This document shows positions 877-26,089 of a stretch of 64,000 bases of DNA, one piece after another (position 1 is the first letter of the stretch; every line of letters begins with the position of its first letter). A program made the translations under genes and the position numbers. The stretch covers positions 1,248,001 to 1,312,000 of the forward strand of contig CP000071.1 in assembly GCA_000002445.1 (NCBI GenBank), read 5' to 3'. The notes under the pieces are model-generated. The model was not told the DNA's origin. It saw only the letters and a list, made by a program, of their open reading frames with translations, and did not search any database. The DNA is from Trypanosoma brucei. Lineage: Eukaryota.

Positions 877-2136
877 TCAACTTTTCCATATACCACACGT
901 ATTATCCTTCGATCCCGTTAATATTGTGTCTCCCTCATAGTTGAAAGCACACGAAAATATCTCATCATTATGCCCCGTAAGCGTTTGTAAATTCTGCCCC
1001 GTTTCCACGCTCCACACTCGACACGTCTTGTCATTTGCAGCCGAAATAATTTTTGTGCCTTGTGGGTTGAATTGAACCTTCGAAATCTCCCCTTCGTGCC
1101 CCACCAGACTTGCGACGCAGTTAAATGTCGCCGTGTCGTATACACGCGCCGTTGCATCTGCACTAGCCGTTACAATTTGGGATCCCGATGTGCTGAAAGC
1201 AACGTCAAGAATTTCATCCGTGTGCCCACGCAGCGTTGAAACACACTGTCCACTGCCTACATCCCACAACTTACTCGTGCGGTCAATGCATCCTGTGACG
1301 CAGAGGTTCCCAGCAAAGTTAAATTGCGTGGAGGAAATCTCCGCTCGATGGGAGCTCAATGTGTGTACGCATTTTCCCGTCCGCACATCCCACAACTTCG
1401 CAGTGGTGTCGAAACTACCAGTGAGAATGAGATCCCCATTCGTGTTAAAATTTAGTGAGACGATTTCTGCGGTGTGGCCGAGTAGTGTGTACAATTCTTG
1501 CCCTGTTTCAACATTCCACACCTTTGCCGTGTAATCCATTGAACCTGACGACAAGTGTGTGCTCTGGGGGTTGAAACTCATGCACACAATTTCCGCCATG
1601 TGTCCCGCCAGCGTGCAGTAGCACTGAGCTGTCCGTGCATCCCATATCTTACATGTTTTGTCGAAACTCCCTGTGGCTACTCGGTTGCCGTACGGGTTGT
1701 TGAACGAAACAGAGTAAACAACGTTTCGATGTCCCTCAAGAGAAACAATTTCATTGCCCGTGGCCGTGTCCCATACCTTACAGGTGCGGTCATAACTTCC
1801 TGTGATGAAAGAATCACCGCCTTTATTGAAGGCACAGTTGGTCAGTGGCAGCATGTGCGCTCGGAGAGTCTTGAAGAGGTAAAACGTTTGGTTGTTGTTG
1901 TAACCCGCACGAAGTTTGTCCACCAGGCGTTGCAGATACGTGACAATCTGCGGCAGAAGATTCATGGAGAGCAGGGGCTCCTCCTTGATTATTTCTGCGG
2001 CCAAGAGTTCTAGATTGGTGTTTGGCGTCAGCGTGAGTAAATCTATATGCTTCTCGCCCACCTCCCCAACGGAGGTCTCATATTCCAACGTTATTCCCGG
2101 AGGGTAGTATCGCAGCAAGAAGGAACGAAGCCGCAT
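877..2136 (-). CDS. ODA16: Outer-row dynein assembly factor ODA16 / DAW1 (WDR69) WD40-repeat protein
   Basis: The 419-aa ORF aligns near end-to-end by eye with human DAW1/WDR69: [15 protein letters not shown] vs [68 protein letters not shown] and the C-terminal [26 protein letters not shown]. It contains about 8 WD40 repeats. Confidence 0.9.
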
Positions 2137-2675
2137 GGGTTCAGTAAGTGGATGTGGGGGAAGAGTTAAACGAAGTCGGATATAAATATATATAAAGTAA
2201 ATGAGATTAAACCTTGAAGTAGCTAATCAACAACAAGTGACTGCTTTTTCTATACTTTAATATATGTACGTATATATGTTGCTCCTATAGAGTTAGAAAT
2301 AACACAAAACAAGAAAAAGGATGGTGCGAAAGTAACAGAAACCTTTCCATTTAAGTGTGAGCGAGAGATACAACATATGTCCATCCTCGTCGTAACGCGT
2401 AGTAACAGTGGAGGGAACCGTAAATAATCACAGAAGTAGCAGTAGGTGTTGTGGTGGGCAGTTTCTTTTTTTGCTGTTGCGTATTTGAAATATATGCTTT
2501 AAGACCCACTTGACATCCTTCCTTCACCAGCAGATCCCACAGGTGAAAAATGTGCTTCGACCTAAACACGTCGCGCGCTGCAGGTTCATCAGGGAGGTGC
2601 CAGGTGTCTGTGTATGCAGAAGAAACGAAAGAATGAAGACGGCAACGAAATAAAGATAGAGATGAGGAGCCGAAC

Positions 2676-2689
2676 AAAAAAAAAAAAAA
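2676..2689 (-). promoter_or_regulatory. Putative polypyrimidine tract in spacer upstream of ODA16
   Basis: A14 is embedded in a purine-rich plus-strand stretch (2640-2700), which is pyrimidine-rich on the coding strand, 5' of the ODA16 start at 2136. A second purine-rich stretch at about 2290-2345 is an alternative. Confidence 0.3.
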
Positions 2690-3194
2690 GCAGTCGATAC
2701 GACAAGAAAGAAAGGAGAGGCAATAGCCACAACCATCCTCGCTGAATATCTACCACTCCGCAACATATACAATCCTGAATCCTCACACACCGGCATGAAA
2801 TCAGCGCTTGTAAGAGTGCATCTCGGGTTGGAAGAGAACAGGTGACGTTGCCTGCCACGACGCAAATGGAAAAAAATGACACTAAACTGAGTGGGAGAGA
2901 CGGATACAAATACACTTCCACATCGCTGGCACTCGAAGCGTCATACTTGTCAAGAAAAACAAAGAAAGCCATCTACGAAATCAACGAAATAAAAATACTT
3001 CGTTTGGTTTCTCTTCCTCCCTCCTCTCTTTTTCTTTATTTCAGGGATCAAACACACATGGGCTGCGTCACTTGGTCTTTTTGCGGTTTAACATAATCAC
3101 AACTTCCGACCTCCCCTCCCCTTCCTTCAATGTCTCTTCCTGAAACAACAGCACACACTGCTTCTTCCCTACTATCGCAATAGGGCACTTCACA

Positions 3195-3872
3195 TCAAGA
3201 AAGATCATACGCGGCTTCGTCGGCGTCTTCGTCTGGAATGGATTCCCTCTCATACGCCTCATCGGCATCCTCGTCATCAACAAATAGTTCCTTATCCATT
3301 TGCCATAAGTCCCAACCACGAAGTTTGCCCTCGCCGGCTTTCGCCTTCCGCACACGAGCGGCATCCGCCTCGGCTGCCTCCTGTCGCTTGGCCGCTTTCC
3401 AGGCTTGAAAACTTTCCTCCGTAACGGGTGTGAGATCACTGCGCCCCTTCAATGCTTCACGTTCCGCCTCCAGCTGTTCCTCTAATCGGCGCTCATCGTA
3501 TTGCACCTCGTCAAAGTCCTCTGGTCTGAACAGGTATTCATCAGGGGCGCAACCGAGATTTTTGTCGACCTCTTCACCTTCTGCGTTGTTGGCACTTTCC
3601 TCTTGCTTCGATTTGTCCTGTTTATTGACGGTAGAAACGTCCTTGAAGAGGCGAGCCATCTCCATCTCGAAGGCCTTCTTCTCCTCACGGGCCTTTCGTT
3701 TTGCTTCAAGATCCTCATTACGCTTACGGTCATTGGGGTTTCCTTGATTGACACTTTTGGAAATGGATTGAATGTAGGACTGTACCTTCGAGCTTCTGTT
3801 CTTATTCTTCAACCCAAACGTTTTGTCTTCGACAATCTTTTCCCGCTTCTTCTGCTCAGCCTTCTTGCCCAT
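3195..3872 (-). CDS. DFRP1 / ZC3H15 / Tma46-like DRG-binding protein lacking the central CCCH zinc fingers
   Basis: The N-terminus KKAEQKKREKIVEDKTFGLKNKNRSSKVQSYIQS matches yeast Tma46 ([21 protein letters not shown]) and human ZC3H15. The C-terminal LTPVTEESFQAWKAAKRQE matches the DFRP domain (LTPITIANFAQWKK / ITLESFLAWKKRKRQE). The 225-aa ORF has no C-x8-C-x5-C-x3-H motif between these blocks. Confidence 0.75.
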   Translation of the reverse strand: MGKKAEQKKREKIVEDKTFGLKNKNRSSKVQSYIQSISKSVNQGNPNDRKRNEDLEAKRKAREEKKAFEMEMARLFKDVSTVNKQDKSKQEESANNAEGEEVDKNLGCAPDEYLFRPEDFDEVQYDERRLEEQLEAEREALKGRSDLTPVTEESFQAWKAAKRQEAAEADAARVRKAKAGEGKLRGWDLWQMDKELFVDDEDADEAYERESIPDEDADEAAYDLS

Positions 3873-4920: not shown

Positions 4921-7900
4921 TTAACGCCGTACTCTCTCGAACCAGCGATCTTCATCTCCTATGATATCCGAACTGTTGGAAATTGCAACACGGCCTACAC
5001 GTCTTACCCCGGAAGTACTTCGGACTCTTGGACGAGTAGTCAATTCGGCCTCCGCCTCTTCATCGTCGTAGCTCACTTCCCTAACAGCCGCGTCTCCTTG
5101 TAGACGCGAGGGCGATGGTTGAGGTGACGATTGGAACGATGGTGATGGGGGGCGTCTAGTGGGTGGAGTCCTTCTTATCGGCCGCCTAACCGCTTCCTCT
5201 TCCTCTTCTTCTATTTCATCCACCTCATGATTCATGACGGGGGGCGCAGGTCTGCGGGTGATGTAACCCCTTCGTGGAACTGGGGCTGGTGGTATCTCAC
5301 TTGAAGGTACGCTCCGGAACGAGTCAGGTACAAACTTTCGATCGGGTTGAGATGAAGGGCGACGAGGAGCTCCTTCAACACCGTCACCACCCCTCTCCAT
5401 AGCTTGAAGTCGATCCCGTTGCTCCCGCCCACGCGTTGGTGGCGGGCCTCCTCTTTTTCCATTTGCACTCGCAAACAGAGGTTGTTGTGGCCTCTTTTTC
5501 GCTTCGTGGAACTCTGCTTGCTCGTTCACCTGCTCCTCCTCGACTTCTTCGTACTTTACCTCTTCCTCATCAACCGCTTCTCCATCCGCCATCTCGACCT
5601 CCTCCTCCTCCTCCTCCTCCTCCTCTTCCACTTCTTCCTCTTTCATGGCGGTACTCCTGGAGGGCGGTGACCTCGACTTTCCACCCCTTCCTGATTTAAC
5701 CACAACCTTTGTTTCTTCACCTTCCATTTCGGTTCCCTGAAGCGTATTGCCCACCGTCTGGGGAATTTGGGAACTACCATGTTTTGTTGACGAATCCCTT
5801 GAAGCAATACCCCGTCGTGCGGGTGCCGCTATCTCCTCCATTTCGTCAAAATCATCATCATCGTCAGCCTCTGGGAGTAACTGTACAAGCGTTGGCGTAA
5901 GCAGTGCCTCGAGGTCGTCACGGTTGGTCAGAATGTCGTGAACCACAGAAACATCAAACTCCTCTATGGCTTCCACAAGACTAGAGACACTCTCGCACTG
6001 AGCTATTGCATTCGCAAGTCCTAGCGGTTCAGCAAGCTGATAAAGACGCTTTTTCTCTGCCACTGAGAAAGGCCCTTCGGTGTCAATACTAACAATGGAT
6101 GTGTTTGCGTTACTCATGGCAGTTGCTCTGTTGGTTCCACTGCCGCCGCTAATGGAAGTGGCCAAAATGTGGTAATGCACGACGTTTACACGGGTTAGAA
6201 TCTGCTGATCAAGCACGTGAAGCACCCCAAGCATCGCCTCAGCAAAACGACAACGAATGTCTTCTTCACGAACAGAACTCTTGAGAGATGTTTCGTATAA
6301 GTGCAGCGTGGTTCCCATCAATGCGACGACACTACACCCCGAGTTGAAGTCAATTGCCGGCCGAATGGGCGTGAAACGACACTTTTTATTCGCGAAGAAT
6401 GCTGTAAACGCCTTAACGGCTTCATCAACCTTTTCCGCCGTCATGTCAGTTACGTTTTTACCACGCCGGGACCGGTACGGACGCCGATCAGATGAGAGAA
6501 GAGGAAAACCAAACGGAGGTACATCACGCACATCAACCGTAACGGGATGCCCACGCGAAATGGTACGCAACAAAACAGCAGCGTGTATTAGTGCCTCTAC
6601 ACCCTTTTCTTTGTAGAATCGGACGGACGCCACGTCGGCTGTGGAGGCCTCACGCGCTTCTGCGTAGCTGTTATACGCAGCCCACACCTGCTTCAATGCG
6701 GCAATCTCCGCCGTATCGTTACGCGATAAACTTGTCGAACTGAAGGCACTATAAAGGGCGAACGGATCCACCTGGGAAATCTCGTCGTCGATTGGTATGA
6801 CGAAGCCTCTCTTCTCGTCCTCCCTAACGTCCGGTAGATGCAGATAGCCATCTGCACTGCTAAACTGGTGAAGCATCAGGGCGGTAAGGCGCGCTAAAGA
6901 CTCTCTCTCTTTCTTGTTGGGCGGTGAAACAGTTGTTGCGGATGCGGTCGCAGCATTTTCGCCACGCTGCTCCTCCTCGACATCGGCATTGTGGTGTCTA
7001 CCTTTTTTCTGCGGACTGTCATCAGTGCCCCTCTTCTTATGTCGGACTCTCATCGCCTTCGGGTCGGAAGCTTCCGCTTTCACATTCTCCGGGGTCGCTA
7101 CCGGATTCAAGTTTCTATTGCCCCGCACGTATGGGGCGGGAGCAAACTCCTGCTCTGTCTCCTCCAAGAGGCGTGCGATCTCAGCATCCTCATCTGTATG
7201 TACAGTCTCAGCAGCCTTCTCATTTTTCTTGCTATTGCTTGCGGCCGCAGCCACTTTATCTTCCTCTCCCTCCCCGAAACCCTCCCCAGCAGCCAACTCT
7301 ACTTGTCTCGCATGCCTCTTTCCTCTGTTCTTCGGTGACTTGTTAAACTTGTTACCAGAGGCATCAGTTTTGTCTTCTCCCTCCTCGGTTGCTGACGCCG
7401 CACTCGCTTCTTGGCTTTTGTTCTCTCTCTTCTCTCCAGCAGCTTCACTAGCTGCAGCTGCCACAGCCCCTGGGAGTGCCGCCTGCATCCCCGTGATAAG
7501 TGGTGCGAGTATTTTCCTGTTGCCCTTATTCGCTACGAACTCTTCAATTACAGCAGCCTGTATTGTTTTTGTTAACCACATAATCACCTGGTCCTTCTGT
7601 GACTCAGCAGGTTGCCGTGCCATCGTGGCATACGCTTCTTCTAAAACGCCCCGGGTATACATCGACACAGGAACTCGCTCCCGGTTCTCATCCCAACGAC
7701 CCACCGTCGTTATACCCGCAAGACGGAGCGCTCGCGCGTCTTTGCACACCTGATAGCGTTCCGAGGCAAGAACGACATCCAACCATTCGCGGCGGCCGCG
7801 TAAGGCCGTAAGTTGTCGCCGTGGGACCATTGCGACAAAATCAAGCATGGACACGTCCTCAACATCAGAGGCGCCGGAATCAATCAACAGCTGTACGACA

Positions 7901-8271
7901 CCCCGCAACGTGTCAGTACGTATACCACTCCCACCGGGTTCTAGTTCAGGAATCAGTACCTGTTCGATTGAACACTGATGCGGCAATGTGTGCGGAATGT
8001 TACCGCCATTAGTTGGGGTCATATTTGAAGACGTGGAGTGGTAACGAAAGCTTCCACTTAGGCCCGTAGCACATAAGCTTCTGCGTCGTAATCCATTCGT
8101 CACAGTGGTGAGGAGTCCAACGCACGCCACATGTTTTGGGGCCAGAGAAACAAGATTACGGCGAAGCATGGCTTTTGTTCGTTCTACTCCCCTCACACTT
8201 TTAAAGGCTCCGGTTCGTTCCACTGTGTGTGATCCGGTTTGGTTTCCAGGACACGTGGAGTTGAAAACCAC
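4921..8271 (-). CDS. Large hypothetical protein (1116 aa), paralog of the adjacent 9778-14847 gene; poly-Glu and Pro-rich C-terminal tail
   Basis: A long uninterrupted ORF on the coding strand of the unit. Two blocks are shared with the neighbouring gene: LLIDSGASDVEDVSMLDFVAMVPRRQLTALRGRREWLDV...ALRLAGITT, and PPFGFPLLSS...FFANKKCRFTPIRPAIDFNSGCSVVALMGTTLHLYE...FAEAMLGVLHVLD. An in-frame (GAG)n run encodes E10. Confidence 0.7.
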   Translation of the reverse strand: MVFNSTCPGNQTGSHTVERTGAFKSVRGVERTKAMLRRNLVSLAPKHVACVGLLTTVTNGLRRRSLCATGLSGSFRYHSTSSNMTPTNGGNIPHTLPHQCSIEQVLIPELEPGGSGIRTDTLRGVVQLLIDSGASDVEDVSMLDFVAMVPRRQLTALRGRREWLDVVLASERYQVCKDARALRLAGITTVGRWDENRERVPVSMYTRGVLEEAYATMARQPAESQKDQVIMWLTKTIQAAVIEEFVANKGNRKILAPLITGMQAALPGAVAAAASEAAGEKRENKSQEASAASATEEGEDKTDASGNKFNKSPKNRGKRHARQVELAAGEGFGEGEEDKVAAAASNSKKNEKAAETVHTDEDAEIARLLEETEQEFAPAPYVRGNRNLNPVATPENVKAEASDPKAMRVRHKKRGTDDSPQKKGRHHNADVEEEQRGENAATASATTVSPPNKKERESLARLTALMLHQFSSADGYLHLPDVREDEKRGFVIPIDDEISQVDPFALYSAFSSTSLSRNDTAEIAALKQVWAAYNSYAEAREASTADVASVRFYKEKGVEALIHAAVLLRTISRGHPVTVDVRDVPPFGFPLLSSDRRPYRSRRGKNVTDMTAEKVDEAVKAFTAFFANKKCRFTPIRPAIDFNSGCSVVALMGTTLHLYETSLKSSVREEDIRCRFAEAMLGVLHVLDQQILTRVNVVHYHILATSISGGSGTNRATAMSNANTSIVSIDTEGPFSVAEKKRLYQLAEPLGLANAIAQCESVSSLVEAIEEFDVSVVHDILTNRDDLEALLTPTLVQLLPEADDDDDFDEMEEIAAPARRGIASRDSSTKHGSSQIPQTVGNTLQGTEMEGEETKVVVKSGRGGKSRSPPSRSTAMKEEEVEEEEEEEEEEVEMADGEAVDEEEVKYEEVEEEQVNEQAEFHEAKKRPQQPLFASANGKRGGPPPTRGREQRDRLQAMERGGDGVEGAPRRPSSQPDRKFVPDSFRSVPSSEIPPAPVPRRGYITRRPAPPVMNHEVDEIEEEEEEAVRRPIRRTPPTRRPPSPSFQSSPQPSPSRLQGDAAVREVSYDDEEAEAELTTRPRVRSTSGVRRVGRVAISNSSDIIGDEDRWFERVRR
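5598..5628 (-). repeat. In-frame (GAG)10 trinucleotide repeat encoding poly-Glu inside the 4921-8271 CDS
   Basis: The plus strand reads cctcctcctcctcctcctcctcctcctc. On the coding strand this is GAG x10, translated as EEEEEEEEEE within VEEEEEEEEEEEEVEMADGE. Confidence 0.9.
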
Positions 8272-9777
8272 ACCGGGCCTATCCGTCGCACCCTCGTTCC
8301 TCCCTTTTTTTTCTCTTTAAAAGGATGGAAGATGTATTGATAAGAAATGTTTGTCTACTGTATGCGCAAAAAAAAACACATATAGAAGGAGAAAAGCGGA
8401 GAAGGAGAACGATCGTAACGCGGCCCTCATAGTGGGTACAGTGACAATCACAAGAAAAAAGCGCGTGCTCCCAACAAGGTATATACTTTTGTACAAGTAG
8501 TGTATGACAAAAAGGGGGTGGGGATAAAACAGAATCACATATGGGAGTGGAATAGAAGAAAGGATGAATGACCCAAACATAAGACGGAGGAGAGGGGAAC
8601 ACCAAACAAAGAAACAAGCGAATGAGAAAAAAAATACAAAAAGTAAGGAAAGTGGTCGTATGCAACAGGACGGGCGGGCCCTCACCCCAGTCGCCGTTTT
8701 CTCTATCCTTCGCACCCTTTTCGCTTTCCCTCATTGGGTCAAACCATCGCCGTCATGCTTTTTCGTTGATTGAAAATCCATTTAGACACTTATGAACGTA
8801 AATAAATATATTTATATATATCACAACGTCGCGCACATACTTATAGAAGGGGCATGCGCCTTTAAGTGCGGTTACTGGCACCGCATGACCTGGCTTCCTC
8901 TCACTCAGTGGTCACTGCGGTAGCTCTGCAGTTGGATGACACACAGGGGGGGGGGGAAATAGGAGGGAGAACTCTGCGTAAAGATCCAGCACCACCTTGC
9001 GTAGGCCAAACGACACGACATCGGCCTTCCAGGCGTAAACGAACTCATAAAAAGAAAAGATTAATCCACGTTGCGAATATATAAAATGACATGAATACGG
9101 AAAGAGATCTAACAAAGGAAGCCACGTACCTTTCACTTCATTACTCACTTGTCTTTAATTTTAATGCATCTATGAAACTTGCGTGGCGGTTGCGCCGCAC
9201 GGCCACACACAGCAAACTGCCGTCTTGGTCACGAAGCGCACGCAAGCCAGGGGAACAACTGGTATCTGCTTCCAAAGGCAGAAACCGGCGAAGAATACCA
9301 AAGTAATACTTAAAGTAATAACAATAAGTGCATCAGTGATAGGTCCATCAAAAGAAAAACTAGGACGAAACACTGCTTAGACGTATCACCCTTCCTCTAT
9401 CGTTCTATTTACGTATGCGTTCATCATGTTGTAGGTTTGCGGGTCTGCACTTACATACTCCGTGCGTAAGTCTGCACACGACAATGTGAAGTAATGCAAC
9501 GAAGCTGGGCGACCATCAGGAAGTCACGGGATAAGGGAAAGATACAATTCAAGCAATCGGTCGAGAGCCGACACTACCAAATGAAGTAAAGTGAAACCAA
9601 AACTCTGAGCTCAGGTAAGTAAATGCAGCAAAGTATGCAAACATCATACGAGGTAAGGAAGAACACACTGCAGTTTTTACGGTGGTGCGATGCGAAGTCC
9701 AGCACTGTTTTCTTACCACCTTCTACTCTGTTCCACACTGCTATCAGTAAACGTTCCGTGGGAAAACGCCAAGAAGC

Positions 9778-12700
9778 CTAAACCATACGCAGCGCTGATT
9801 TCTTCTGCTTTTTCTTCGCATTCTTATCTGTCTTTGATGCAGCCGCCACGCTTGCACGTGATGTAGTGCGCTTGGCTGGTTTTGCCAATTCCCTTGATTT
9901 GTTCCTTCCACGCGATGAGGCCGCTGTGGTGGAGGATGAGGAAGAGGACCTTTTCGGTGTTACTGACTGTACAGTCCTCTTTAGATTTGCTTGCTGCTGC
10001 TTTGGCTTCTTTTCTGGCACATTTGAACGCTGGAGAGGCTTTCTGCCTCTTTTCCCGGTAACAGCCTTGGTGCTACTACCCTTCCCGTCAGTACCACTAC
10101 CGCTGCCGCTACCACTGACCCTGCCTCTACTTCTACCTCTACCTTTGTTATCCCTAGTTGCCTGTTCTACGTCGCTTTGTTCCTCCACCTCTACCTCTTC
10201 TACTTCCACCACCTCTATCTTTTGGCCACTAACTTTTCCGCGCTTCACCTCTTCCTGCACCTTCTTAAGTTCTGCAGCTGGCTCCCTTGCGGTACTAGTA
10301 GCCCTGTTCCCCATGGCACTATGCGTTACGCTGGAGTTACTTTTCCTATTGAATGGTAAAGGGGCTGTAATCACTGCAGGTCGGGAAGTCGAGGCGCTTG
10401 GGTACGCAGCAATGGGGGCTGTCGCGCTCGACCTATCACTCTCTTGACTGGAAGCCGCCGCCGGAGTAACGATATCATGCAGCCACGCCAGTGCATCTTC
10501 TTGAGAAGCCGTGGCCGCTGGATGCGGTGTATTCTCGACGGCAGGTATGCTGCTACTAATAGGATTTCCCACTGCTACACTTTCCATTGAGGCTGTTGTT
10601 GCTGATGGGTCCTGTGCAGGCGTTGCGGGATACTCCTGCGCACTACTGGAGAAGGCGTCATTCATCATAGCCTCCAACAACTCTGCTGAATCTTGTATAG
10701 GATCACCGCCAACAAAATCATCGCCGGTAGGGGCATCGTGAGGTACGGCAGCACCGCTTTCCACTCGTTCCATCTCTGGTCTCCGTGATCCCTCGTGCTC
10801 ATCATCAAGTATGTCCACCATCAGGGCATTTGGTGGGAGCACTTCCGCCCGGTATGGTGGCAGAACGGTGGCATCTGGAACCAGCTGCATAAGCGTCGAC
10901 GACAGCAACGACTCGAGTTCTGCCTGGGAGGCCACCACATCTTGATGGACATGGACGTGGTAAACGCTTTCTAACTCGTCCAGAATATCATTAAGGGTTC
11001 GGAACTCCTTGTCGATGCCAAGGATCTCCTGCAAAACGCGTAGCCGGTCAATGACACTATCTTCAAACACAGCACTCAAGTCTAAGAAGTAGGGAACAAT
11101 GGGGACAGGTGTCGCGGTGAACATCTCATCTGTTGTCAGCACCGACACCCGACTATTCGCCCCTTCACCACCGTTGCTGACGCCACCCATGCCGCTATTT
11201 GTAGATGATGCTTGATCCACGGAAACAACACTAACATAGTGGACTGTTTGTATCCGATGTTGTGGCAGAATATTCTTCTCAATGCAGTGCAGAACACCAA
11301 GCAGAGCTTCCGCAAACCGATAGCTGATATTGCGAAGCGCTTCCGTCGTGGTGACCAAGTCGTACAATGCCAACGTTGTGCCATCAACAAAAACAACATC
11401 ACACCCACCGTTCAACCCCACTGACGGTCGGAACGGGAAACGCTCTAGTAGTGTATTTGCAAAGAACGCCCTGTACGCCGATCCAGCTTTTCGGACAGTC
11501 TCTGGTGTCGCTTTCATAATGGTCGGTATTGCGCTTCCCCTTTGTTTGGATCTTGTTGGTGAGGCAAGTAACGGGAACCCATAAGGAGGAATCTTAAGGT
11601 TCAGGTCTATCTGCACCCCAGAAACTGCTACGGCGCGTAGAAGCAGCGCCCCATGCAGAAGCACACGCAATGCATCACGTTTGCGCACGCTTGTTGTACC
11701 CATCGGACTCACAACGGCACAGTACTCAGCCCACACTTCGCCCCAAGCCCTTACGATGGGTGTCTCCCGAGGGGATTCCAAGGGATCCTGATGAGAAAAT
11801 ATGGTAAAGAGCGCAAATGGATGGACTTGACAGGCTGTGTGGTTGTAGGGAACGATGAGCCCGTCCCGTTCATCCTGCAGCGTCGTATCGACGTCTCTGG
11901 TTAGGTACCCGGTAGGACTGCTTAACTGCCGCTGTAGAAGTTCTACAAGTCGCATCCGCGCTTCAGGCGGATTCCGCAGAAGGTAATTTCGCTGGGGCAG
12001 GTCCGCAAAAAGTTCGCTCGGGACATAGCTTCGAAGCAGGGGATGTGTGCCACTCCATTGCATCAGCCGTGGTGCACCACCTCGCAAGTCCATAAGCGCG
12101 GCACGCCCGGACCAGAAGACATCCAATGTGTAACCCAACAACCCCGGACAGTTCTTTAGCACCTCGTACATCAGACCAGAGAAACCAAGTCGGAAGCGCT
12201 GGTGGAGGGCGTGCAGCACGGAAACCAGTGGTAATACACGCAGTCGTTGCTGTAATCCGATGCCACTTGCTAAAGGGACAAAATAGCGCCGAACAGGGGC
12301 GTCAGCGTGAACGAGAAGGACCTTGCTCACATGATGTCCCGTAAAAACCATGTTCAGCTGCCCTAGCGCAACCGTCACCTTTGACAAAGCGGTCTCCACC
12401 ATATCTTGTGTAAACTGCTGTTCGTGTTGCGCGTGATGACCAACCCCGGAAGGCGCTGGGGATGGAATGCCTGCAGCCTTTATGTCACTGGCCGCACCCT
12501 TTTCGACGTTTTGAGGTGAATGGTATTGGGGATTCTGTGGCACTCCAACCCCCATCGTTGCTTCACCCGCTGACAATTGGAGTGTACTGTTTGTGTCCAT
12601 GCTATTCATTAGGCCACCAGGATACGTCAGCTGAGGGATGTGGTGCTCCATGCAGTCCAGTACTCGATCGATGTCATCCACAAGAATCGCGTGCAGCGGC

Positions 12701-14847
12701 GGTGGTGCACCTTCGCAGTGACCTCGGATGCGGATACGTTTCTGGTATAGTTCCCACGACCAATTGTTGCGGTTGGCCCACCACATGACGGACTGCGGAG
12801 CGCGGGTGAAAATTTCCTCTGTCCGAACAAGGTAAGGACAAGAGGCAAGAGCGACACGAAACCAGAAACGCGGGGCGAATGCCAGTGGGTGATCATCCAG
12901 TCCCGGTGCAAACGGTGTGGTGGACCCACTATAGCGTACAGTGATGGCGGTCCTACCGCTTTCTGCCATACGTTTCGAGAGGCGCTCAAGAACGGAAGTC
13001 TTGCCGCACGAGTGCCCCGCCTCAACGAAATGGAGCTGCTTCGACGCGGACGACGACATATAGTAGCCGCTCAACACGGAGAGTAGACGCTCCTCCACAA
13101 GCTTCCCCGCACCAAAAAGTTGCTGCAAACCCAGAGCCTCTGCTGCACTAAATCCTTTACCCAGTCGATCGGCACCCTTAATGGCGTCAAACAGTGTGGT
13201 ACGGGCTACACGTATGGTATGACGCTTCAGCCTGTGAAGGACGGAAAAATACTCATTCTGCACGGGGTTTCCCTGCCAGAGCTCGGGAGATGAGGACGGT
13301 TGCGGACTGCCACACCACTCACCGAGGGTCACGTTATAGTTTGTGCTACCTGTGAGGAAGACTCCACCTGCCAAAGTGGGAGCCGCCACATCCAATGCCG
13401 ATGGTGCGTTCCCGCTCACAATCATACTGTTACCACCGGGGTGCGCCCCTGAAAACCTCGTGCTATCCGAGTGTGTGAACATCTGGGTACTCATTGCAGT
13501 GCTAGGGCTAAACCCCCACTCGCCGGTGTTATGAAAAACAAAATAGCGTACGGGGATACTCTGCAACTGCAATGCCGATGCAGTCTGTCGCAGCAGGCCG
13601 GGAAGACGCTCCAGTGCGAGAAATCCGTAGTCCCGCAATGGGTGTAACTCCTTTGGCATATTGGGAGCTTGTGTCTCCAGCACCCTTAACATGGCATCAC
13701 TTAGAGTTGCATATGCTTTTTCGCGAATTTCTGCTTCAGCCTGCGGGTCGAGAGAAGCTTTCATCGCCTCATTGTCTTGTGCACCCATGTGCCGCTGCAT
13801 CATGTATTCCCTGCGCACACTTGCTATCACCTTCTTAACTAGACGGTGGTAGTGTTCTAATGTGCATATGTGCCCCGTTGAAGCGCCGTCAAATCCAATA
13901 CCGCCGCTCTGCAACATTGCATGGTTAGCTGGTATATTCAGTGAATCGAGGATAAATTTACCAATAATGTCAGCAGCCCACAATACCAGCGTATCCTCCA
14001 GCATGTTACTTGTATTTACAAGTTTAACCACCTCGTCTACGTACGTTTCGACGCTTTTATCCACGGCGGCATCCAGTAGACTGCGTGTACAGGAAGAAAC
14101 TTTTACCAGGTTGGGCTGCTCTGCCCACTGATAAAGTGTTGTGATGCCCGCCAGCCGCAGCGCCCTCAGATCATAATGTGGCGACTCCAATGAAAGACGG
14201 GAAACCTGTTTGTAGTGTGAGCTCTCCAGCAACCATTCGAGCCATGATCTCTTCCCATTGAGTGCCGCAAGCTGCCTTTTGGGCTGCATAGATGCAAAAT
14301 CCGTCAGGGAAACGTTTTCCACCCCCTCCGCGTTGGGGTCAATGAGAAGCCGCACAATATCGGGCAGCATCTCGGCTGCAAGGGATTCATCCGCTTTAAT
14401 GATATCTCCAATGCGTGTATCTAGTGTGGGGCCTGTAAGCACTGGCATTCGACGAGTGGCGGTGGCACGCATTGGCCCACATTGGGCCGCTGTGCTCTGC
14501 AGCACGCCAACGTTCTCCGGCATGATTCGTGCGCCCGCTCCCACTCTACTTGCCTCTTCCTCCATCATGGTAATGCTGAGGATGCCATCTAACTCTGTGG
14601 ATGAAGGCATACTCAACGGGGGTATGGAGGGTTTAACATTTAACATTGACGGCGGCACTGGGGTTGATGCTGCCGGTTTCGTTGTCTGTGCCCCACGGAA
14701 CCATGGTAAATGCGGAACACTATTTCCAGGAGGTGTGTAAGAAATCTTCCCCAAACTTCCAGTGTTATGCACCTGGTGTCTCATCAGTCCAGAAGTCCAT
14801 TGAACCGGCACCGCGATGACCGGCGAGATGACACGACGTCGCAGCAT
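9778..14847 (-). CDS. Large hypothetical protein (1689 aa) with P-loop NTPase motifs; paralog of the 4921-8271 gene
   Basis: It shares the N-terminal block (LLIDPNAEGVENVSLTDFASMQPKRQLAALNGKRSWLEW...ALRLAGITT) and the C-terminal block (PPYGFPLLAS...FFANTLLERFPFRPSVGLNGGCDVVFVDGTTLALYD...FAEALLGVLHCIE) with the upstream gene. A Walker A motif AGHSCGKTS lies at about nt 12994-13020 and a Walker B-like LHAILVDDID about 100 aa later. The C-terminal tail is basic, S/K-rich and low-complexity. Confidence 0.7.
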   Translation of the reverse strand: MLRRRVISPVIAVPVQWTSGLMRHQVHNTGSLGKISYTPPGNSVPHLPWFRGAQTTKPAASTPVPPSMLNVKPSIPPLSMPSSTELDGILSITMMEEEASRVGAGARIMPENVGVLQSTAAQCGPMRATATRRMPVLTGPTLDTRIGDIIKADESLAAEMLPDIVRLLIDPNAEGVENVSLTDFASMQPKRQLAALNGKRSWLEWLLESSHYKQVSRLSLESPHYDLRALRLAGITTLYQWAEQPNLVKVSSCTRSLLDAAVDKSVETYVDEVVKLVNTSNMLEDTLVLWAADIIGKFILDSLNIPANHAMLQSGGIGFDGASTGHICTLEHYHRLVKKVIASVRREYMMQRHMGAQDNEAMKASLDPQAEAEIREKAYATLSDAMLRVLETQAPNMPKELHPLRDYGFLALERLPGLLRQTASALQLQSIPVRYFVFHNTGEWGFSPSTAMSTQMFTHSDSTRFSGAHPGGNSMIVSGNAPSALDVAAPTLAGGVFLTGSTNYNVTLGEWCGSPQPSSSPELWQGNPVQNEYFSVLHRLKRHTIRVARTTLFDAIKGADRLGKGFSAAEALGLQQLFGAGKLVEERLLSVLSGYYMSSSASKQLHFVEAGHSCGKTSVLERLSKRMAESGRTAITVRYSGSTTPFAPGLDDHPLAFAPRFWFRVALASCPYLVRTEEIFTRAPQSVMWWANRNNWSWELYQKRIRIRGHCEGAPPPLHAILVDDIDRVLDCMEHHIPQLTYPGGLMNSMDTNSTLQLSAGEATMGVGVPQNPQYHSPQNVEKGAASDIKAAGIPSPAPSGVGHHAQHEQQFTQDMVETALSKVTVALGQLNMVFTGHHVSKVLLVHADAPVRRYFVPLASGIGLQQRLRVLPLVSVLHALHQRFRLGFSGLMYEVLKNCPGLLGYTLDVFWSGRAALMDLRGGAPRLMQWSGTHPLLRSYVPSELFADLPQRNYLLRNPPEARMRLVELLQRQLSSPTGYLTRDVDTTLQDERDGLIVPYNHTACQVHPFALFTIFSHQDPLESPRETPIVRAWGEVWAEYCAVVSPMGTTSVRKRDALRVLLHGALLLRAVAVSGVQIDLNLKIPPYGFPLLASPTRSKQRGSAIPTIMKATPETVRKAGSAYRAFFANTLLERFPFRPSVGLNGGCDVVFVDGTTLALYDLVTTTEALRNISYRFAEALLGVLHCIEKNILPQHRIQTVHYVSVVSVDQASSTNSGMGGVSNGGEGANSRVSVLTTDEMFTATPVPIVPYFLDLSAVFEDSVIDRLRVLQEILGIDKEFRTLNDILDELESVYHVHVHQDVVASQAELESLLSSTLMQLVPDATVLPPYRAEVLPPNALMVDILDDEHEGSRRPEMERVESGAAVPHDAPTGDDFVGGDPIQDSAELLEAMMNDAFSSSAQEYPATPAQDPSATTASMESVAVGNPISSSIPAVENTPHPAATASQEDALAWLHDIVTPAAASSQESDRSSATAPIAAYPSASTSRPAVITAPLPFNRKSNSSVTHSAMGNRATSTAREPAAELKKVQEEVKRGKVSGQKIEVVEVEEVEVEEQSDVEQATRDNKGRGRSRGRVSGSGSGSGTDGKGSSTKAVTGKRGRKPLQRSNVPEKKPKQQQANLKRTVQSVTPKRSSSSSSTTAASSRGRNKSRELAKPAKRTTSRASVAAASKTDKNAKKKQKKSALRMV

Positions 14848-23435: not shown

Positions 23436-23606
23436 GGTTGTATTTGGTCAAACAGTTTAATAATAAATGTTCCCTCCTTCGATCACCTTCACCTTCAATG
23501 CTCACTGGTTGTGCGATATCAAATGATCCACTTTTCGCCAATGTTTATGTGTAGGACCCCTCTGCGTACACCTGTTCCGCCACTGCAGGAAGAGGAACAA
23601 TGCTTT

Positions 23607-23618
23607 AAAAAAAAAAAA
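23607..23618 (-). promoter_or_regulatory. Putative polypyrimidine (U12) trans-splicing/polyadenylation signal upstream of the ADA-like gene
   Basis: A12 on the plus strand is T12 on the coding strand, about 175 nt 5' of the 23435 start codon. In kinetoplastids, poly(Y) tracts followed by AG direct splice-leader addition and upstream polyadenylation. This is inferred from position and composition only. Confidence 0.35.
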
Positions 23619-24379
23619 GCAACAAACCGCTCACGCGATACCACGCCTCAGTTTTTAAGAGATGTTGGAAGCGGGACAAAGACAAAACACGGGAAAGAAG
23701 GGCGGATGTTTGGGTAAGCACTAACGCGAGGTACGGCAGTGTACGGCCGGCAAATTCCGAAGGGAAGTGATCGCATATCAACTGTAACAAAACCTGGTGG
23801 TGGCACTTCTTTTAGAAATAGCACAGTCCACCACGAAGAATGTTAAGAAAGAAGTGTTAGTGATAAGCGATGGGCAGTCAGTCGAACCAAAGCTGAAGCA
23901 GAACCGATGGAAGGAGGACCTGAGGAGACAACATTAACAATACCACCGACTACCCCCATCCCCCCACAACATCGGGGTAACTTTTAATATGTGCACGACG
24001 GCAAAAAAAAAAAGGGGGGGGGAAATTGTGAACATTGAGACAAAACCTATGTGCCACCAACGCTTAAACCCCACTCTTTCCCTTCATTTCATTTCCGCTC
24101 CATCCACCTTCCACAGAAACCGCCTCGTTCAGTAATCTCAGACCCCCTCCTTCTTCTTCCTCTCCTCCCTCTCCATATTCTTTCTTACCCACCCTTCTTT
24201 CTCCCCATCCATGTTTCGTTGTATCACCTTCTTCTCTTTCACACGCATTCATATTTCAATACCATCGCTCCTTTTCCTCTCCATCCCCATCCCTCTCACC
24301 TCCAACCTCACGCCCTTTTCTCCTCTTTTTTCTTTTTATTCTTTGCTTGTTTTCCAACTCCCATCACATTCATCGTTGT

Positions 24380-24754
24380 TTAGTGGCCACCGCCGCCAAC
24401 TATACGAAAGATTTGGTTCGAGATGTACCACTGACTTCCTTCCTGGGCCAAATGAAAAACATCATTGAACTTCAGAGGATGGCTCTCACCCTTCAGCAGT
24501 ACTTCACCATTCACCACGACAAGGACACCACCGCTGAGTGATGGGTGACAATCGATATCTTCTGTCTTAAAAAGTGCTTCATCAAAGCTTAGGTTGGCGA
24601 AACGGGCCATAATATTCTCACCCCCTTGGATTTGCTCACCAACCCAAGTCATGAGGGAAGTTGGGCGATACACACCAGCAAGTTGCGTGCGGTTCTTTGA
24701 GAAGAACTCGTAGTACTGACGGATGAATCCCGTTCCAATCTCTTGAAAGGACAT
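24380..24754 (-). CDS. NTF2: Nuclear transport factor 2 (NTF2)
   Basis: The 124-aa ORF has the NTF2 fold hallmarks IGTGFIRQYYEFFSKNRTQLAGVYRPTSLMTWVGEQIQG...LSGGVLVVVNGEVLLKGESHPLKFNDVFHLAQEGSQWYISNQIFRI, and both its size and motif layout are typical of NTF2. Confidence 0.9.
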   Translation of the reverse strand: MSFQEIGTGFIRQYYEFFSKNRTQLAGVYRPTSLMTWVGEQIQGGENIMARFANLSFDEALFKTEDIDCHPSLSGGVLVVVNGEVLLKGESHPLKFNDVFHLAQEGSQWYISNQIFRIVGGGGH

Positions 24755-24829
24755 TGTTTGTTGTCTATTTCAGTCTGTGATTTACACCACTCTTAATGTT
24801 TGACTTCTTATTGGTCTTTTTTCCTTTTC

Positions 24830-24843
24830 AAAAAAAAAAAAAA
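24830..24843 (-). promoter_or_regulatory. Putative polypyrimidine tract (U14) upstream of NTF2
   Basis: A14 on the plus strand is T14 on the coding strand, about 75 nt 5' of the NTF2 start at 24754. Confidence 0.35.
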
Positions 24844-25503
24844 CAAACCTCGCTTCAATTAATTCTTCTTTTGTGTTGTTTTTAGCTTGCCTGGAGGTAA
24901 TAGCAACGGCAGCAAATGTTTAAAATTGGCGTGGGCAGAAGAAGGGAAAAGAAGCAACAACACTTACGCACTGTAGACTCACTAAAGATAACCATCACAA
25001 CAACAACTAAAATGACTCTCTCTCTCTTTCTCTTTATTTATTTATTTTTGCCTCCTTTTCCTTTAGCATATAGAACCCCCTCCCCTCACTATGCAGAGGT
25101 CATTACAGTTATCCCACCATACAAATTTAATCGAATAATAGACACACACAGTAATCATGTGCACAGCACCCACCTGCGGTACAACAACTCATTCCACCAA
25201 ATCGATCCTGCAACGTTTTCTCATCCTTCAATTCTCTCATTGCCTCTTTCTTTGATTTTACTGCTTGCTAGCGCTCACAACATAAGGACAAGAGCAGCGC
25301 TTTTGGATTAACCGTGCATCCCCACTCGTCACGGTTTGTTACCAACGAACATGGAACTATAAATAACCTCAACCACCGTCTCACAATGAAAAATAAAAAA
25401 CGGCAACGCGAGCACCTGAAGCTCTATCGGCCATTCTTACTTTTGTATTTGTGTGGGTTTATGTATGAAAAAGAGGAATGAAATAATGTCTGCTTGTCAC
25501 CAC

Positions 25504-26079: not shown

Positions 26080-26089
26080 GCTTCCTTCC

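What the first reader, a model, noticed from the sequence alone, without database searches (positions are those of the whole stretch)
4921..14847. Tandem paralog pair of large proteins; only one copy carries a P-loop NTPase module (Walker A AGHSCGKTS and Walker B ILVDDID)
The adjacent genes 4921-8271 and 9778-14847 share two conserved blocks. One is an N-terminal block of about 120 aa ending in ALRLAGITT. The other is a C-terminal block of about 300 aa (PP[FY]GFPLL[AS]S...FFAN...NGGC[SD]VV...GTTL.LY...FAEA[ML]LGVLH). Their linkers and tails have diverged completely: poly-E and P-rich in one, basic S/K-rich in the other. The longer copy additionally contains Walker A and Walker B motifs spaced about 100 aa apart, at about nt 12630-13230, which is a hallmark of an AAA+/STAND-like or other P-loop NTPase. 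The module is absent from the shorter copy. I cannot place the shared blocks in any named family from memory, so this looks like a lineage-specific protein family in which one paralog has gained or retained an NTPase engine.
Basis: seen in the sequence. Interest (0 to 1): 0.6.

Follow-up and report, generated by a model that had tools for sequence, protein, structure and literature searches.

The report
kDNA replication paralogs; one hidden ATPase
These two neighbouring Trypanosoma brucei genes are a published pair of mitochondrial-DNA (kinetoplast) proteins, and the longer one, recently shown to be needed for kinetoplast DNA replication but described as having no recognisable domains, contains a real though very divergent ATP-driven motor domain that the shorter copy has lost.

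Summary
The window is T. brucei chromosome 8. The genes are Tb927.8.4240 (1689 aa, 9778-14847, minus strand) and Tb927.8.4230 (1082 aa, 4921-8169, minus strand).

They share an N-terminal block (E 5e-21) and a C-terminal block (E 4e-44). The paralogy, the kinetoplast location and the need for 4240 in kDNA replication are already published. Those papers found no domains in 4240.

Three results here go beyond them:
2. **Shared C block.** Its core has the strand and helix order of a PD-(D/E)xK nuclease. Environmental relatives keep D...ExK, the long copy keeps D...DxV, and the short copy has S...ExS.
3. **Direction of change.** A compact environmental homolog joins the ATPase and this domain in one gene, so the short copy most likely lost the motor.

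Most likely mechanism, inferred rather than shown: an ATP-gated factor that binds DNA and assembles partner enzymes at the kDNA antipodal sites. No ATPase, DNA-binding or nuclease activity has been tested.

The parts
9778..14847 (-). Long paralog, Tb927.8.4240 (UniProt Q57W11), 1689 aa plus stop codon. It begins with MLRR, which looks like a mitochondrial presequence.
   Evidence: ORF. Its 90%-identity cluster holds the T. b. brucei TREU927 entry (Q57W11) together with the T. b. gambiense and T. equiperdum entries. Named Tb927.8.4240 in the 2026 preprint.
4921..8169 (-). Short paralog, Tb927.8.4230 (UniProt Q57W12), 1082 aa plus stop codon. It starts at an ATG and begins MLRRNL.
   Evidence: This exact sequence is in the collection as XP_847254 / Q57W12. 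The GTG-extended ORF 4921-8271 comes from using the bacterial code.
13903..14445 (-). Shared N block in the long copy (aa 135-315). Family unknown.
   Evidence: BLASTP E 5e-21. Alignment of 16 orthologs of both paralogs. No Pfam or PDB sequence match. Not modelled.
7531..7959 (-). Shared N block in the short copy (aa 71-213 of the 1082-aa protein).
13141..13902 (-). Region found only in the long copy (aa 316-569). It is conserved among orthologs of the long copy and absent from the short copy. No counterpart was recognised in the compact environmental homolog. Function unknown. Only its last 40 residues (aa 530-569) were in the model, and they were low confidence.
   Evidence: Ortholog alignment. 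Short-copy orthologs match only profile positions 426-807 of the profile built on long-copy aa 530-1330. Low pLDDT over model residues 1-50.
12268..13140 (-). AAA+/STAND-class P-loop ATPase domain (aa 570-860). Order of elements: the conserved LFGxxKLVEDRL helix, strand beta1, the P-loop, helix alpha1, strand beta2, a helical insert, strand beta3 carrying Walker B, then strands beta4 (VFTG) and beta5 (RRYFVPL).
12994..13020 (-). Walker A / P-loop, AGHSCGKTS (aa 610-618).
   Evidence: Translation. [AG]xxxxGK[ST] is present in all 12 long-copy orthologs examined; the environmental homolog has STPRAGKS. It lies between beta1 and alpha1 in the model.
12667..12687 (-). Walker B, ILVDDID (aa 721-727).
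   Evidence: Translation. L722 and D724 are invariant. D725 is conserved in trypanosomatids and is Glu (ILIDEF) in the environmental homolog. It sits at the end of strand 189-195 of the model.
12445..12618 (-). Low-complexity, poorly conserved insert inside the ATPase domain (aa 744-801), between the helix after Walker B and the helix before beta4.
   Evidence: pLDDT below 50 at model residues 215-272. Variable in length and sequence among orthologs and absent from P0041.
11971..12267 (-). Conserved helical region after the ATPase core (aa 861-959). It may be a lid or helical domain, but it is not confidently modelled.
   Evidence: Highly conserved sequence (QQRLRVLPL, YEVLKNCPGL). pLDDT below 50 at model residues 331-420.
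10870..11970 (-). Shared C block in the long copy (aa 960-1326).
   Evidence: BLASTP E 4e-44. pLDDT mostly above 80 at model residues 421-680 and 731-790.
11224..11505 (-). Core of the C block in the long copy (aa 1115-1208), with the alpha-beta-beta-beta-alpha-beta order of a PD-(D/E)xK (restriction-endonuclease-like) fold. The motif positions read D1150 ... D1163-L-V1165, so the lysine is missing.
   Evidence: Order of helices and strands at model residues 586-679. Motif alignment. Weak Foldseek matches to the nickase Nt.BspD6I at ranks 33 and 48, E 0.13-0.22. No sequence-level support.
5866..6903 (-). Shared C block in the short copy (aa 423-768).
6154..6441 (-). Same core in the short copy (aa 577-672). 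The first motif acid is replaced (GCSVV) and the lysine position is Ser (LYETS); only the second acid remains in T. brucei.
   Evidence: In a second group of short-copy orthologs, tentatively Leishmania-like, the second acid is Tyr (LYYTS).
6895..7494 (-). Hydrophilic, disorder-like linker of the short copy (aa 226-425). It occupies the place of about 650 aa in the long copy, including the ATPase.
   Evidence: Hydrophobic-residue fraction 0.06-0.22 and mean hydropathy down to -1.9. No match to the ATPase profile.
9781..10857 (-). Tail of the long copy (aa 1331-1689), predicted disordered and ending in a basic S/K-rich stretch.
   Evidence: Composition. InterPro disorder prediction for residues 1464-1689, quoted in the preprint.
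4924..5844 (-). Tail of the short copy (aa 776-1082), with poly-E and P-rich stretches. It ends in the conserved motif DEDRWFERVRR.
   Evidence: Composition. Ortholog sequences.

Best explanation
The two genes are Tb927.8.4240 and Tb927.8.4230 of Trypanosoma brucei. They are a tandem pair of mitochondrial proteins, conserved across trypanosomatids, that sit at or near the antipodal sites of the kinetoplast DNA disk.

The ancestral unit was a compact protein with an AAA+/STAND-class P-loop ATPase followed directly by a PD-(D/E)xK-type (restriction-endonuclease-like) domain. The long copy keeps a Walker A/B ATPase that looks competent for nucleotide binding, of the 'hhhhDD' type typical of slowly hydrolysing switch ATPases. 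In its nuclease-like domain the motif lysine is gone. After the duplication, the short copy lost the whole ATPase region, now replaced by a disordered linker, and also lost the first acidic residue of the nuclease-like motif.

Most likely mechanism (inferred): 4240 is an ATP-gated DNA-binding and assembly factor, working like the initiator/loader AAA+ proteins it most resembles in structure (TnsC, MuB, ORC/Cdc6, DnaA/Hda, IstB). In the ATP state it binds or oligomerises on replicating minicircle DNA. Through the shared N and C blocks it positions processing enzymes such as the kinetoplast ligases. 4230 is a motor-less adaptor built from the same blocks and dedicated to ligase k-beta.

**Shown here:** the paralogy, the ATPase fold and the conservation of its motifs, the state of the motif positions in the C block, and the conserved gene order.

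**Shown by others:** localisation of both proteins, kDNA loss on 4240 RNAi, and proximity of 4230 to LigK-beta.

**Inferred:** the nuclease-fold assignment (moderate support), the direction of the loss, ATP-dependent DNA binding, and ligase recruitment.
For: **Identity and published function.**. RNAi of 4240 causes kDNA shrinkage and loss, rescued in a kDNA-independent background. The protein localises to the antipodal sites and the disk periphery. 4230 is at the antipodal sites and was more than 100-fold enriched in LigK-beta BioID. 4240 was also enriched on an 8-oxoG DNA bait in a pull-down screen.

**Paralogy.**

**ATPase domain.**
- Walker A [AG]xxxxGK[ST] is present in all 12 long-copy orthologs examined, down to sequences 32-38% identical over the ATPase core.
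- Walker B hhhhDD is conserved and is the canonical ILIDEF in the environmental homolog.
- The motif pair is expected by chance in 0.11% of shuffles.
- The AlphaFold model from a 24-sequence alignment has mean pLDDT 70, with ATPase-core blocks at 63-95. Walker A lies between beta1 and alpha1 and Walker B at the end of beta3.
- Foldseek against PDB and BFVD lists ORC4, NLRP7, RFC, Cdc6 and an origin-binding protein at the top.
- The only weak sequence hits are P-loop families, aligned in register: YqeC, nSTAND_NTPase5, AAA_16 and AAA_26, and thymidine kinase and NSF-D2.

**C block.** High-confidence alpha-beta-beta-beta-alpha-beta core. The motif positions read D...ExK in environmental relatives, D/E...Dx[V/A/L] in long-copy orthologs, and S/G...[E/Y]xS in short-copy orthologs.

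**Loss rather than gain.** Contig L002 carries the ATPase ORF followed 26 nt later by the C-block core ORF. Contig L003 shows the junction as one continuous ORF. The short copy's linker is disorder-like. Paratrypanosoma has only the long ortholog (literature).

**Gene order.** In Leptomonas seymouri the order is long copy, short copy, DFRP_C protein, then a 419-aa gene matching the size and position of the window's WD40 gene.
Against: - No biochemical evidence exists for ATP binding or hydrolysis, DNA binding, or oligomerisation.
- The ATPase is not recognised by any profile library at significance. The assignment therefore rests on a predicted structure plus motif conservation.
- A first model built from 9 sequences was useless, with pLDDT 35.
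- Classical AAA+ accessory features are unclear. The sensor-1 position is Thr in most orthologs but Ala in several. No invariant arginine finger was identified. The putative lid is modelled with pLDDT below 50.
- The PD-(D/E)xK assignment has only weak direct fold-search support (Foldseek E 0.13-0.22, probability 0.21-0.25) and no sequence support.
- The taxonomic origin of the compact homolog is unknown, so treating it as an outgroup is an assumption.
- The link to ligase k-alpha is speculation from the preprint, not data.
Confidence: 0.6

Rival explanations
1. Pseudo-ATPase scaffold. The P-loop fold is real, but the domain no longer turns over ATP. It is a structural remnant, possibly still binding nucleotide as a cofactor, and 4240 acts purely as a scaffold through its shared blocks and disordered tail.
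For: Walker B is DD rather than DE in all trypanosomatids, while the environmental relative has DE. The sensor-1 Thr is replaced by Ala in several orthologs and no invariant arginine finger was found. A 58-aa low-complexity insert sits inside the domain. The adjoining nuclease-like domain is visibly degenerate.
Against: K616, the following Ser/Thr, D724 and D725 are conserved across long-copy orthologs that are only 32-38% identical over the ATPase core. Such conservation is hard to explain without selection on nucleotide binding. hhhhDD is the normal Walker B of functional STAND switch ATPases (established knowledge, not tested here).
Confidence: 0.2
2. ATP-dependent nuclease. The long copy is an active ATPase-nuclease that cuts or processes kDNA, for example in primer or flap removal, or in release or linearisation of minicircles.
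For: The long copy keeps both acidic motif residues, D1150 and D1163 (D/E and D in all long-copy orthologs aligned). Environmental relatives have the full D...ExK motif. The protein was enriched on damaged-DNA bait. RNAi causes kDNA loss.
Against: The motif lysine is replaced by V, A or L in every long-copy ortholog aligned. The fold assignment is itself only moderately supported. No nuclease family matches at sequence level.
Confidence: 0.12
3. The ATPase was gained. The ancestor was a short-type protein (N block plus C block), and the long copy acquired the ATPase region by insertion after the duplication.
For: Nothing direct. It remains possible only because the origin of the environmental homolog is unknown.
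Against: The compact homolog has the ATPase directly upstream of the C block, with homology running through the junction. The GFPxL motif, the nuclease core and the C-terminal LxPTxxxLLPD motif are all present. Paratrypanosoma reportedly has only the long form. The short copy's linker looks like the disordered remnant of a deletion.
Confidence: 0.06
4. Chance motifs. The Walker-like strings are coincidental and lie in a non-NTPase or non-globular region.
For: A single strict Walker A occurs in 10% of shuffled sequences of this composition. No profile library recognises the region.
Confidence: 0.02

Closest known systems
Initiator/loader-type AAA+ ATPases (TnsC, MuB, IstB, ORC/Cdc6, DnaA/Hda)
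   Different: Sequence identity is only 8-13%, and no profile match reaches significance. Walker B is DD rather than DE. Sensor 1, the arginine finger and the lid with sensor 2 are not confirmed. There is a large helical insert between beta2 and beta3 and a low-complexity insert after Walker B. The C-terminal partner domain is nuclease-like rather than a winged helix. The flanking N block and aa 316-569 have no counterpart.
STAND NTPases (NLR/NACHT, NB-ARC such as CED-4 and Apaf-1; Pfam AAA_16 and nSTAND families)
   Different: There is no C-terminal repeat sensor (LRR, WD40 or TPR). The helical and winged-helix modules that follow the NTPase domain in STAND proteins are not resolved. The Pfam scores are far below the curated cut-offs.
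Prokaryotic ATPase plus PD-(D/E)xK-fold fusion families (Pfam AAA-ATPase_like PF09820 with PDDEXK_9 PF08011; AAA_14 with DUF4143). Recalled from memory.
   Same: The domain order is the same: an N-terminal P-loop ATPase followed by a C-terminal restriction-endonuclease-like domain in one polypeptide. The compact environmental homolog is about 770 aa. Its motif flavour (PRxGKS, LIDE[FY], a TG strand, GxxDhh...hhE[hx]K) resembles what I recall of PF09820/PF08011.
   Different: hmmscan against Pfam returned none of these families for any member, even at E up to 10. The resemblance is therefore an untested lead. The trypanosomatid proteins add a mitochondrial presequence, the N block, aa 316-569 and long disordered tails, and their nuclease motif is degenerate.
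The published description of Tb927.8.4230 and Tb927.8.4240 (Pyrih et al. 2020, PMC7314023; Miskinyte et al. 2026, bioRxiv 10.64898/2026.01.05.697628)
   Same: Same genes. Published points: the paralogy (BLAST E 3e-40 and 9e-41), the tandem and syntenic arrangement, pI 5.2 against 8.2, kinetoplast and antipodal-site localisation, the need for 4240 in kDNA replication, and the proximity of 4230 to LigK-beta.
   Different: Both papers treat the proteins as domain-less. [quoted passage not shown] It contains no mention of Walker motifs, a P-loop or a nuclease. The ATPase and nuclease-like assignments are not in that literature.

Membership tests
P-loop NTPase fold (ASCE division) | Walker A GxxxxGK[ST] in the loop between strand beta1 and helix alpha1 | tested here: met
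   AGHSCGKT at aa 610-617 corresponds to model residues 81-88, between strand 76-80 and helix 87-100. Conserved in all orthologs examined.
P-loop NTPase fold (ASCE division) | Walker B hhhhD[DE] at the C-terminal end of a core strand | tested here: met
   AILVDD at aa 720-725 corresponds to the end of strand 189-195. D724 is invariant. D725 is Asp in trypanosomatids and Glu in the environmental homolog.
P-loop NTPase fold (ASCE division) | Overall three-dimensional similarity to solved P-loop NTPases | tested here: met
P-loop NTPase fold (ASCE division) | Strand order 5-1-4-3-2, with an extra strand between the P-loop strand and the Walker B strand | not testable with these tools
Classical AAA+ ATPases | Polar sensor-1 residue at the tip of beta4 | tested here: inconclusive
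   The candidate is T836 in VFTG. It is Thr in most orthologs but Ala in P0020, P0022, P0023 and P0024 (VFAG, ALAG, VLAG).
Classical AAA+ ATPases | Arginine finger (box VII) and sensor 2 in a C-terminal helical lid | tested here: inconclusive
   Conserved arginines exist (R853, and R868/R870 in QQRLRVLPL). The lid region, model residues 331-420, has pLDDT below 50, so their positions cannot be judged.
STAND NTPases | Significant match to a STAND or AAA_16-type profile | tested here: not met
   Best values are E 0.044 (nSTAND_NTPase5) and 0.11 (AAA_16), each in one or two of nine orthologs. There is no hit for the T. brucei sequence.
STAND NTPases | C-terminal repeat sensor domain (LRR, WD40, TPR) | tested here: not met
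   No repeat families in Pfam. The C-terminal region is the shared C block followed by a disordered tail.
PD-(D/E)xK nuclease superfamily (shared C block) | Core alpha-beta-beta-beta-alpha-beta topology | tested here: met
   Model elements H586-602, E607-610, E622-626, E629-636, H645-661 and E672-679, in blocks with mean pLDDT mostly above 80. This is the linear order only; the three-dimensional arrangement was not inspected.
PD-(D/E)xK nuclease superfamily (shared C block) | Catalytic D ... (D/E)xK at the start of beta2 and within beta3 | tested here: not met
   The long copy reads D1150 ... D1163-L-V. The short copy reads S ... E-T-S. Only the environmental relatives have D ... E-[VA]-K.
PD-(D/E)xK nuclease superfamily (shared C block) | Fold-level or profile-level match to known members | tested here: inconclusive
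Pfam AAA-ATPase_like (PF09820) plus PDDEXK_9 (PF08011) | Match to the family profiles | tested here: not met
   These families are absent from every hmmscan output at E up to 10, including for the compact environmental homolog.

The most novel reading that the evidence does not exclude
The pair descends from an ATPase-nuclease module of the kind found in mobile elements and defence systems, structurally nearest to TnsC, MuB, IstB and ORC. Trypanosomatids domesticated it into an ATP-driven handling machine for kinetoplast minicircles. The long copy would be the missing ATP-dependent loader or sorter that marks newly replicated gapped minicircles at the antipodal sites and hands them to the ligase and topoisomerase machinery for reattachment to the network. 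The short copy would be its motor-less partner, possibly pairing with it through the shared nuclease-fold domain, so that the two paralogs are matched to the two paralogous ligases k-alpha and k-beta.
Probability: 0.2. Interest if true: 0.75.

Novelty: new member of a known kind. Interest (0 to 1): 0.5.

Why it matters
Tb927.8.4240 was validated in 2026 as a specific, essential kDNA replication factor. It was published as a 184-kDa protein with no recognisable domain, which leaves no handle on its mechanism.

A conserved AAA+/STAND-class ATPase of the initiator/loader type, followed by a degenerate nuclease-fold domain, makes it directly testable. Walker A and Walker B point mutants, ATPase and DNA-binding assays, and tests of oligomerisation on DNA can all be designed from the coordinates given here.

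The result also explains how the paralogs differ: one with a motor, one without. It suggests where the family came from, namely a compact ATPase-nuclease protein. None of the kDNA replication factors listed in the preprint's introduction is an AAA+/STAND-type ATPase of this class. An ATP-driven loader or switch at the antipodal sites would therefore bear on two open questions: how replicated minicircles are sorted, and how they are reattached to the network.

The family is confined to kinetoplastid parasites and absent from hosts, so an enzymatic pocket in an essential protein also has some relevance as a drug target.

Tried and rejected
- **Pfam on both full proteins, on ortholog sets of each block, and on the environmental homologs.** Nothing significant.
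- **NCBIfam and PADLOC.** Nothing, apart from one chance-level hit.
- **Profile searches against PDB sequences** for aa 530-1330, the ATPase core, the nuclease-like core and the N block. Nothing significant. The only suggestive sub-threshold hits were P-loop proteins aligned in register at the Walker motifs.
- **First AlphaFold run** (aa 530-962, 9 sequences). pLDDT was 35, so it was discarded and not used for fold search.
- **Word-indexed homolog search.** It recovered few sequences: 8, 2 and 1. The exhaustive HMMER search was what supplied diversity.
- **AFDB fold search.** The library was not available, so the nearest predicted-structure families could not be named.
- **Two metagenome scans for more compact relatives.** Both found nothing, so the organism behind contigs L002 and L003 is unknown.
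- **Membership in Pfam PF09820/PF08011.** I recalled a resemblance, but no search supports it, so I do not claim it.
- **A helix-hairpin-helix reading of the N-block motif LRLAGITT.** No search supports it, so it was dropped.
- **Antisense ORFs at 6914-7753, 9866-10447 and 14258-14740.** I regard them as artefacts of composition.
Full report
**What is there**

The window is Trypanosoma brucei chromosome 8. The 1689-aa ORF at 9778-14847 (minus strand) falls in the 90%-identity cluster that holds the T. b. brucei TREU927 entry Q57W11 together with the T. b. gambiense and T. equiperdum entries. The ORF downstream of it, read from its first ATG (4921-8169, 1082 aa), is identical to XP_847254 / Q57W12.

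All ORFs of 200 aa or more, apart from two antisense artefacts, lie on the minus strand. That fits a trypanosomatid polycistronic unit. A 2026 preprint names the genes Tb927.8.4240 (long) and Tb927.8.4230 (short).

**Check of the observation**

BLASTP of the two products gives two independent significant blocks:
- a C block, 32% identical over 379 columns, E 4e-44
- an N block, 46% identical over 106 aa, E 5e-21

An alignment of 16 orthologs shows that the N block continues about 70 aa beyond ALRLAGITT.

The strings AGHSCGKTS and ILVDDID translate from 12994-13020 and 12667-12687. The short copy has neither motif.

A lone Walker A is weak evidence, since it occurs in 10% of shuffles of this protein. 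A Walker A followed 40-200 aa later by hhhhD[DE] occurs in only 0.11%.

The tails are acidic and P-rich in the short copy and basic and S/K-rich in the long copy. The short copy carries a 200-aa hydrophilic linker where the long copy has about 650 aa of mostly globular-looking sequence.

**What was already known**

Pyrih et al. 2020 found Tb927.8.4230 as the only specific BioID partner of the kinetoplast ligase LigK-beta. [quoted passage not shown]

Miskinyte et al. 2026 recovered Tb927.8.4240 in a genome-wide RNAi screen for kDNA loss. They showed:
- progressive kDNA shrinkage and loss on knock-down
- full rescue of growth in a kDNA-independent background
- a dynamic location at the antipodal sites, at the disk periphery and on the nabelschnur

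They report that both genes are syntenic across trypanosomatids, that Bodo lacks both, and that Paratrypanosoma has only the long one. They state that no domain or motif could be identified and that the AlphaFold model was not informative. The words Walker, P-loop and nuclease do not occur in the paper.

A DNA-lesion pull-down survey lists Tb927.8.4240 among T. brucei proteins enriched on an 8-oxoG bait.

The pair and its paralogy are therefore not new. The NTPase claim is.

**Is the NTPase module real?**

Sequence libraries do not see it. Pfam, NCBIfam, PADLOC and PDB sequence profiles give nothing significant. The only sub-threshold hits are P-loop families aligned in register at the Walker motifs:
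- YqeC, nSTAND_NTPase5, AAA_16 and AAA_26
- thymidine kinase, and NSF-D2 with both motifs aligned in order

An exhaustive HMMER search of 1.84 billion representative proteins, using a profile of aa 530-1330, found only 27 proteins. These are orthologs of the long copy, orthologs of the short copy (which match the C block only), and two fragments from one environmental sample.

Across the long-copy orthologs, some only 32-38% identical over the ATPase core, several elements are conserved:
- Walker A [AG]xxxxGK[ST]
- Walker B hhhhDD
- an upstream helix, LFGxxKLVEDRL
- a VF[TA]G strand
- an RRYFxPL strand

The environmental homolog P0041 has STPRAGKS and the canonical ILIDEF, and it lacks the low-complexity insert.

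A first AlphaFold run with 9 sequences failed, with pLDDT 35. A second run on aa 530-1330 with a 24-sequence alignment gave mean pLDDT 70. That alignment included the divergent orthologs, the short paralogs and the environmental fragments. Block-mean pLDDT over the ATPase core (model residues 51-210 and 281-330) is 63-95, mostly above 80.

The order of elements is beta1, P-loop, alpha1, beta2, a helical insert, beta3 with Walker B, a helix, a disordered insert, a helix, beta4 and beta5. Both motifs sit at their canonical positions.

- BrxC and the archaeal ATPase Sso1545 also appear

I conclude, with about 0.9 confidence, that aa 570-860 form a genuine AAA+/STAND-class P-loop domain. I cannot decide between the classical AAA+ class and the STAND class, for three reasons:
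- the sensor-1 position varies between Thr and Ala
- no arginine finger is certain
- the presumed lid is poorly modelled

**What is the shared C block?**

It is modelled with high confidence, with block-mean pLDDT mostly above 80. Its centre (long-copy aa 1115-1208) runs helix, three strands, helix, strand. That is the signature order of the PD-(D/E)xK restriction-endonuclease-like fold.

Two conserved positions fall exactly where the catalytic residues of that fold sit, at the start of the second strand and within the third. At these positions:
- the environmental relatives read GCDVV ... LYE[VA]K, a canonical D...ExK
- long-copy orthologs read GC[DE]V ... LYDx[V/A/L], with both acids kept and the lysine lost
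- short-copy orthologs read GC[SG]V ... LY[EY]TS, with the first acid lost, the second lost in one subgroup, and no lysine

Direct fold-search support is weak. A nicking endonuclease appears at Foldseek ranks 33 and 48, with E 0.13-0.22. The ATPase dominates whole-model searches, and I could not submit the domain alone. Sequence searches are silent. I rate the fold assignment at about 0.6, and an active nuclease in the window's proteins as unlikely.

The N block and long-copy aa 316-569 remain unassigned.

**Direction of evolution**

On environmental contig L002, the ATPase ORF (P0041) stops just after the GFPxL motif of the C block. A second ORF, 26 nt downstream and in another frame, continues with the nuclease-like core. 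On contig L003 from the same sample, a 62%-identical relative shows this junction as one uninterrupted ORF. That ORF ends shortly after the C-terminal LxPTxxxLLPD motif.

A compact protein of about 770 aa, with the ATPase and the nuclease-like domain and all motifs canonical, therefore exists outside the two trypanosomatid ortholog groups. Together with the published absence of a short ortholog in Paratrypanosoma, this favours retention of the motor in the long copy and its deletion from the short copy after duplication.

The caveat is that the organism behind L002 and L003 is unknown, and two metagenome scans found no further relatives.

Gene order is conserved. In Leptomonas seymouri the order is long copy, short copy, a DFRP_C protein, then a 419-aa gene. 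In the window, a DFRP_C protein and a 419-aa WD40 protein likewise follow the short copy.

**How it most likely works**

The shown facts are these:
- a conserved ATPase of the structural class whose members bind DNA in the ATP state and recruit partners
- a neighbouring nuclease-fold domain with a degenerate motif
- residence at the kDNA antipodal sites
- a requirement for kDNA replication
- a motor-less paralog next to LigK-beta

From these I infer that 4240 is an ATP-gated DNA-binding and assembly factor. It would act on replicating or newly replicated minicircles and position processing enzymes. 4230 would be a specialised adaptor built from the same interaction blocks.

The hhhhDD Walker B suggests slow, switch-like hydrolysis rather than a processive motor. 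That reading rests on established knowledge of STAND proteins and was not tested here. I put about 0.4 on this specific mechanism and 0.6 on the whole best explanation.

The rivals are:
- a catalytically dead scaffold (0.2)
- an active ATP-dependent nuclease (0.12)
- gain rather than loss of the ATPase (0.06)
- chance motifs (0.02)

**Verdict**

The gene pair is already known, so the finding is not a discovery of the paralogs. The ATPase domain, the probable nuclease-fold origin of the shared block and the loss scenario are absent from the accessible literature. They give an experimentally validated but mechanistically blank kDNA replication factor its first testable mechanism.

It is a new, highly divergent member of a known kind of protein rather than a new kind of system. 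Interest is moderate (0.5).

Noticed in passing
L002:88-2359 and L003:2-778 (JGI sample 3300046002): Two short environmental contigs encode compact relatives of the long copy, 62% identical to each other over the shared part. All motifs are canonical: GKS, ILIDEF and D...ExK. On L002 the gene is split by a frame change in a loop. On L003 the same junction is one continuous ORF. The source organism is unknown, and the GC content is 56-60%.
   Followed up: partly
window 4924-4956 (minus strand; C-terminus of the short copy): The short copy ends in DEDRWFERVRR. Orthologs with otherwise unalignable tails end in the same kind of motif (DQWFRKRPKRRYF, ERWFDRR, TDQWFRRPA). This suggests a conserved short linear motif at the extreme C-terminus.
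   Followed up: no
window about 10450-10700 (minus strand; long-copy aa about 1387-1462): Two short islands inside the otherwise variable long tail are nearly invariant across long-copy orthologs: SAELLEAMMND and EDALAWLHDIVTP. They may be interaction motifs. The short copy's linker has a similar-looking conserved DAEIARLLEETEQEF.
   Followed up: no
window 23436-28523: A stretch of about 5 kb has no ORF of 200 aa or more and low GC (0.34 at 26-28 kb). Only two trivial tandem repeats and no tRNA were found. It may be a long UTR or intergenic region, or may hold small genes.
   Followed up: partly
window 6914-7753, 9866-10447 and 14258-14740 (plus strand): Long antisense ORFs overlap both paralogs. 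Their translations are low-complexity (L/S/F/A-rich). I take them as compositional artefacts, not genes.
   Followed up: no
window 877-3872 and 15323-46181 (minus strand): Neighbouring genes are a 419-aa WD40 protein, a 225-aa DFRP_C (DRG-regulatory) protein, a TPR-containing protein, a protein kinase, an adenosine-deaminase-like protein, an IQ-motif protein of 1466 aa, a Ras/Rab-like GTPase, and several ORFs with no Pfam match (28524-30560, 41218-41820, 43050-46181). In Leptomonas a DFRP_C gene and a 419-aa gene also follow the pair.
   Followed up: partly
literature (PMC10220248): Tb927.8.4240 is listed among T. brucei proteins enriched on an 8-oxoguanine DNA bait in a cross-species lesion pull-down. 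This is independent, if indirect, evidence that it associates with DNA.
   Followed up: partly
P0023 and P0036 (Logan assemblies): A very divergent long-copy ortholog (2006 aa) and a short-copy ortholog (1389 aa) both report a longest contig of 44,678 bp. They probably lie on the same contig, so the tandem arrangement would hold in that unnamed organism too. Some short-copy orthologs (P0037, P0038) have grown to more than 2000 aa through low-complexity expansion.
   Followed up: no
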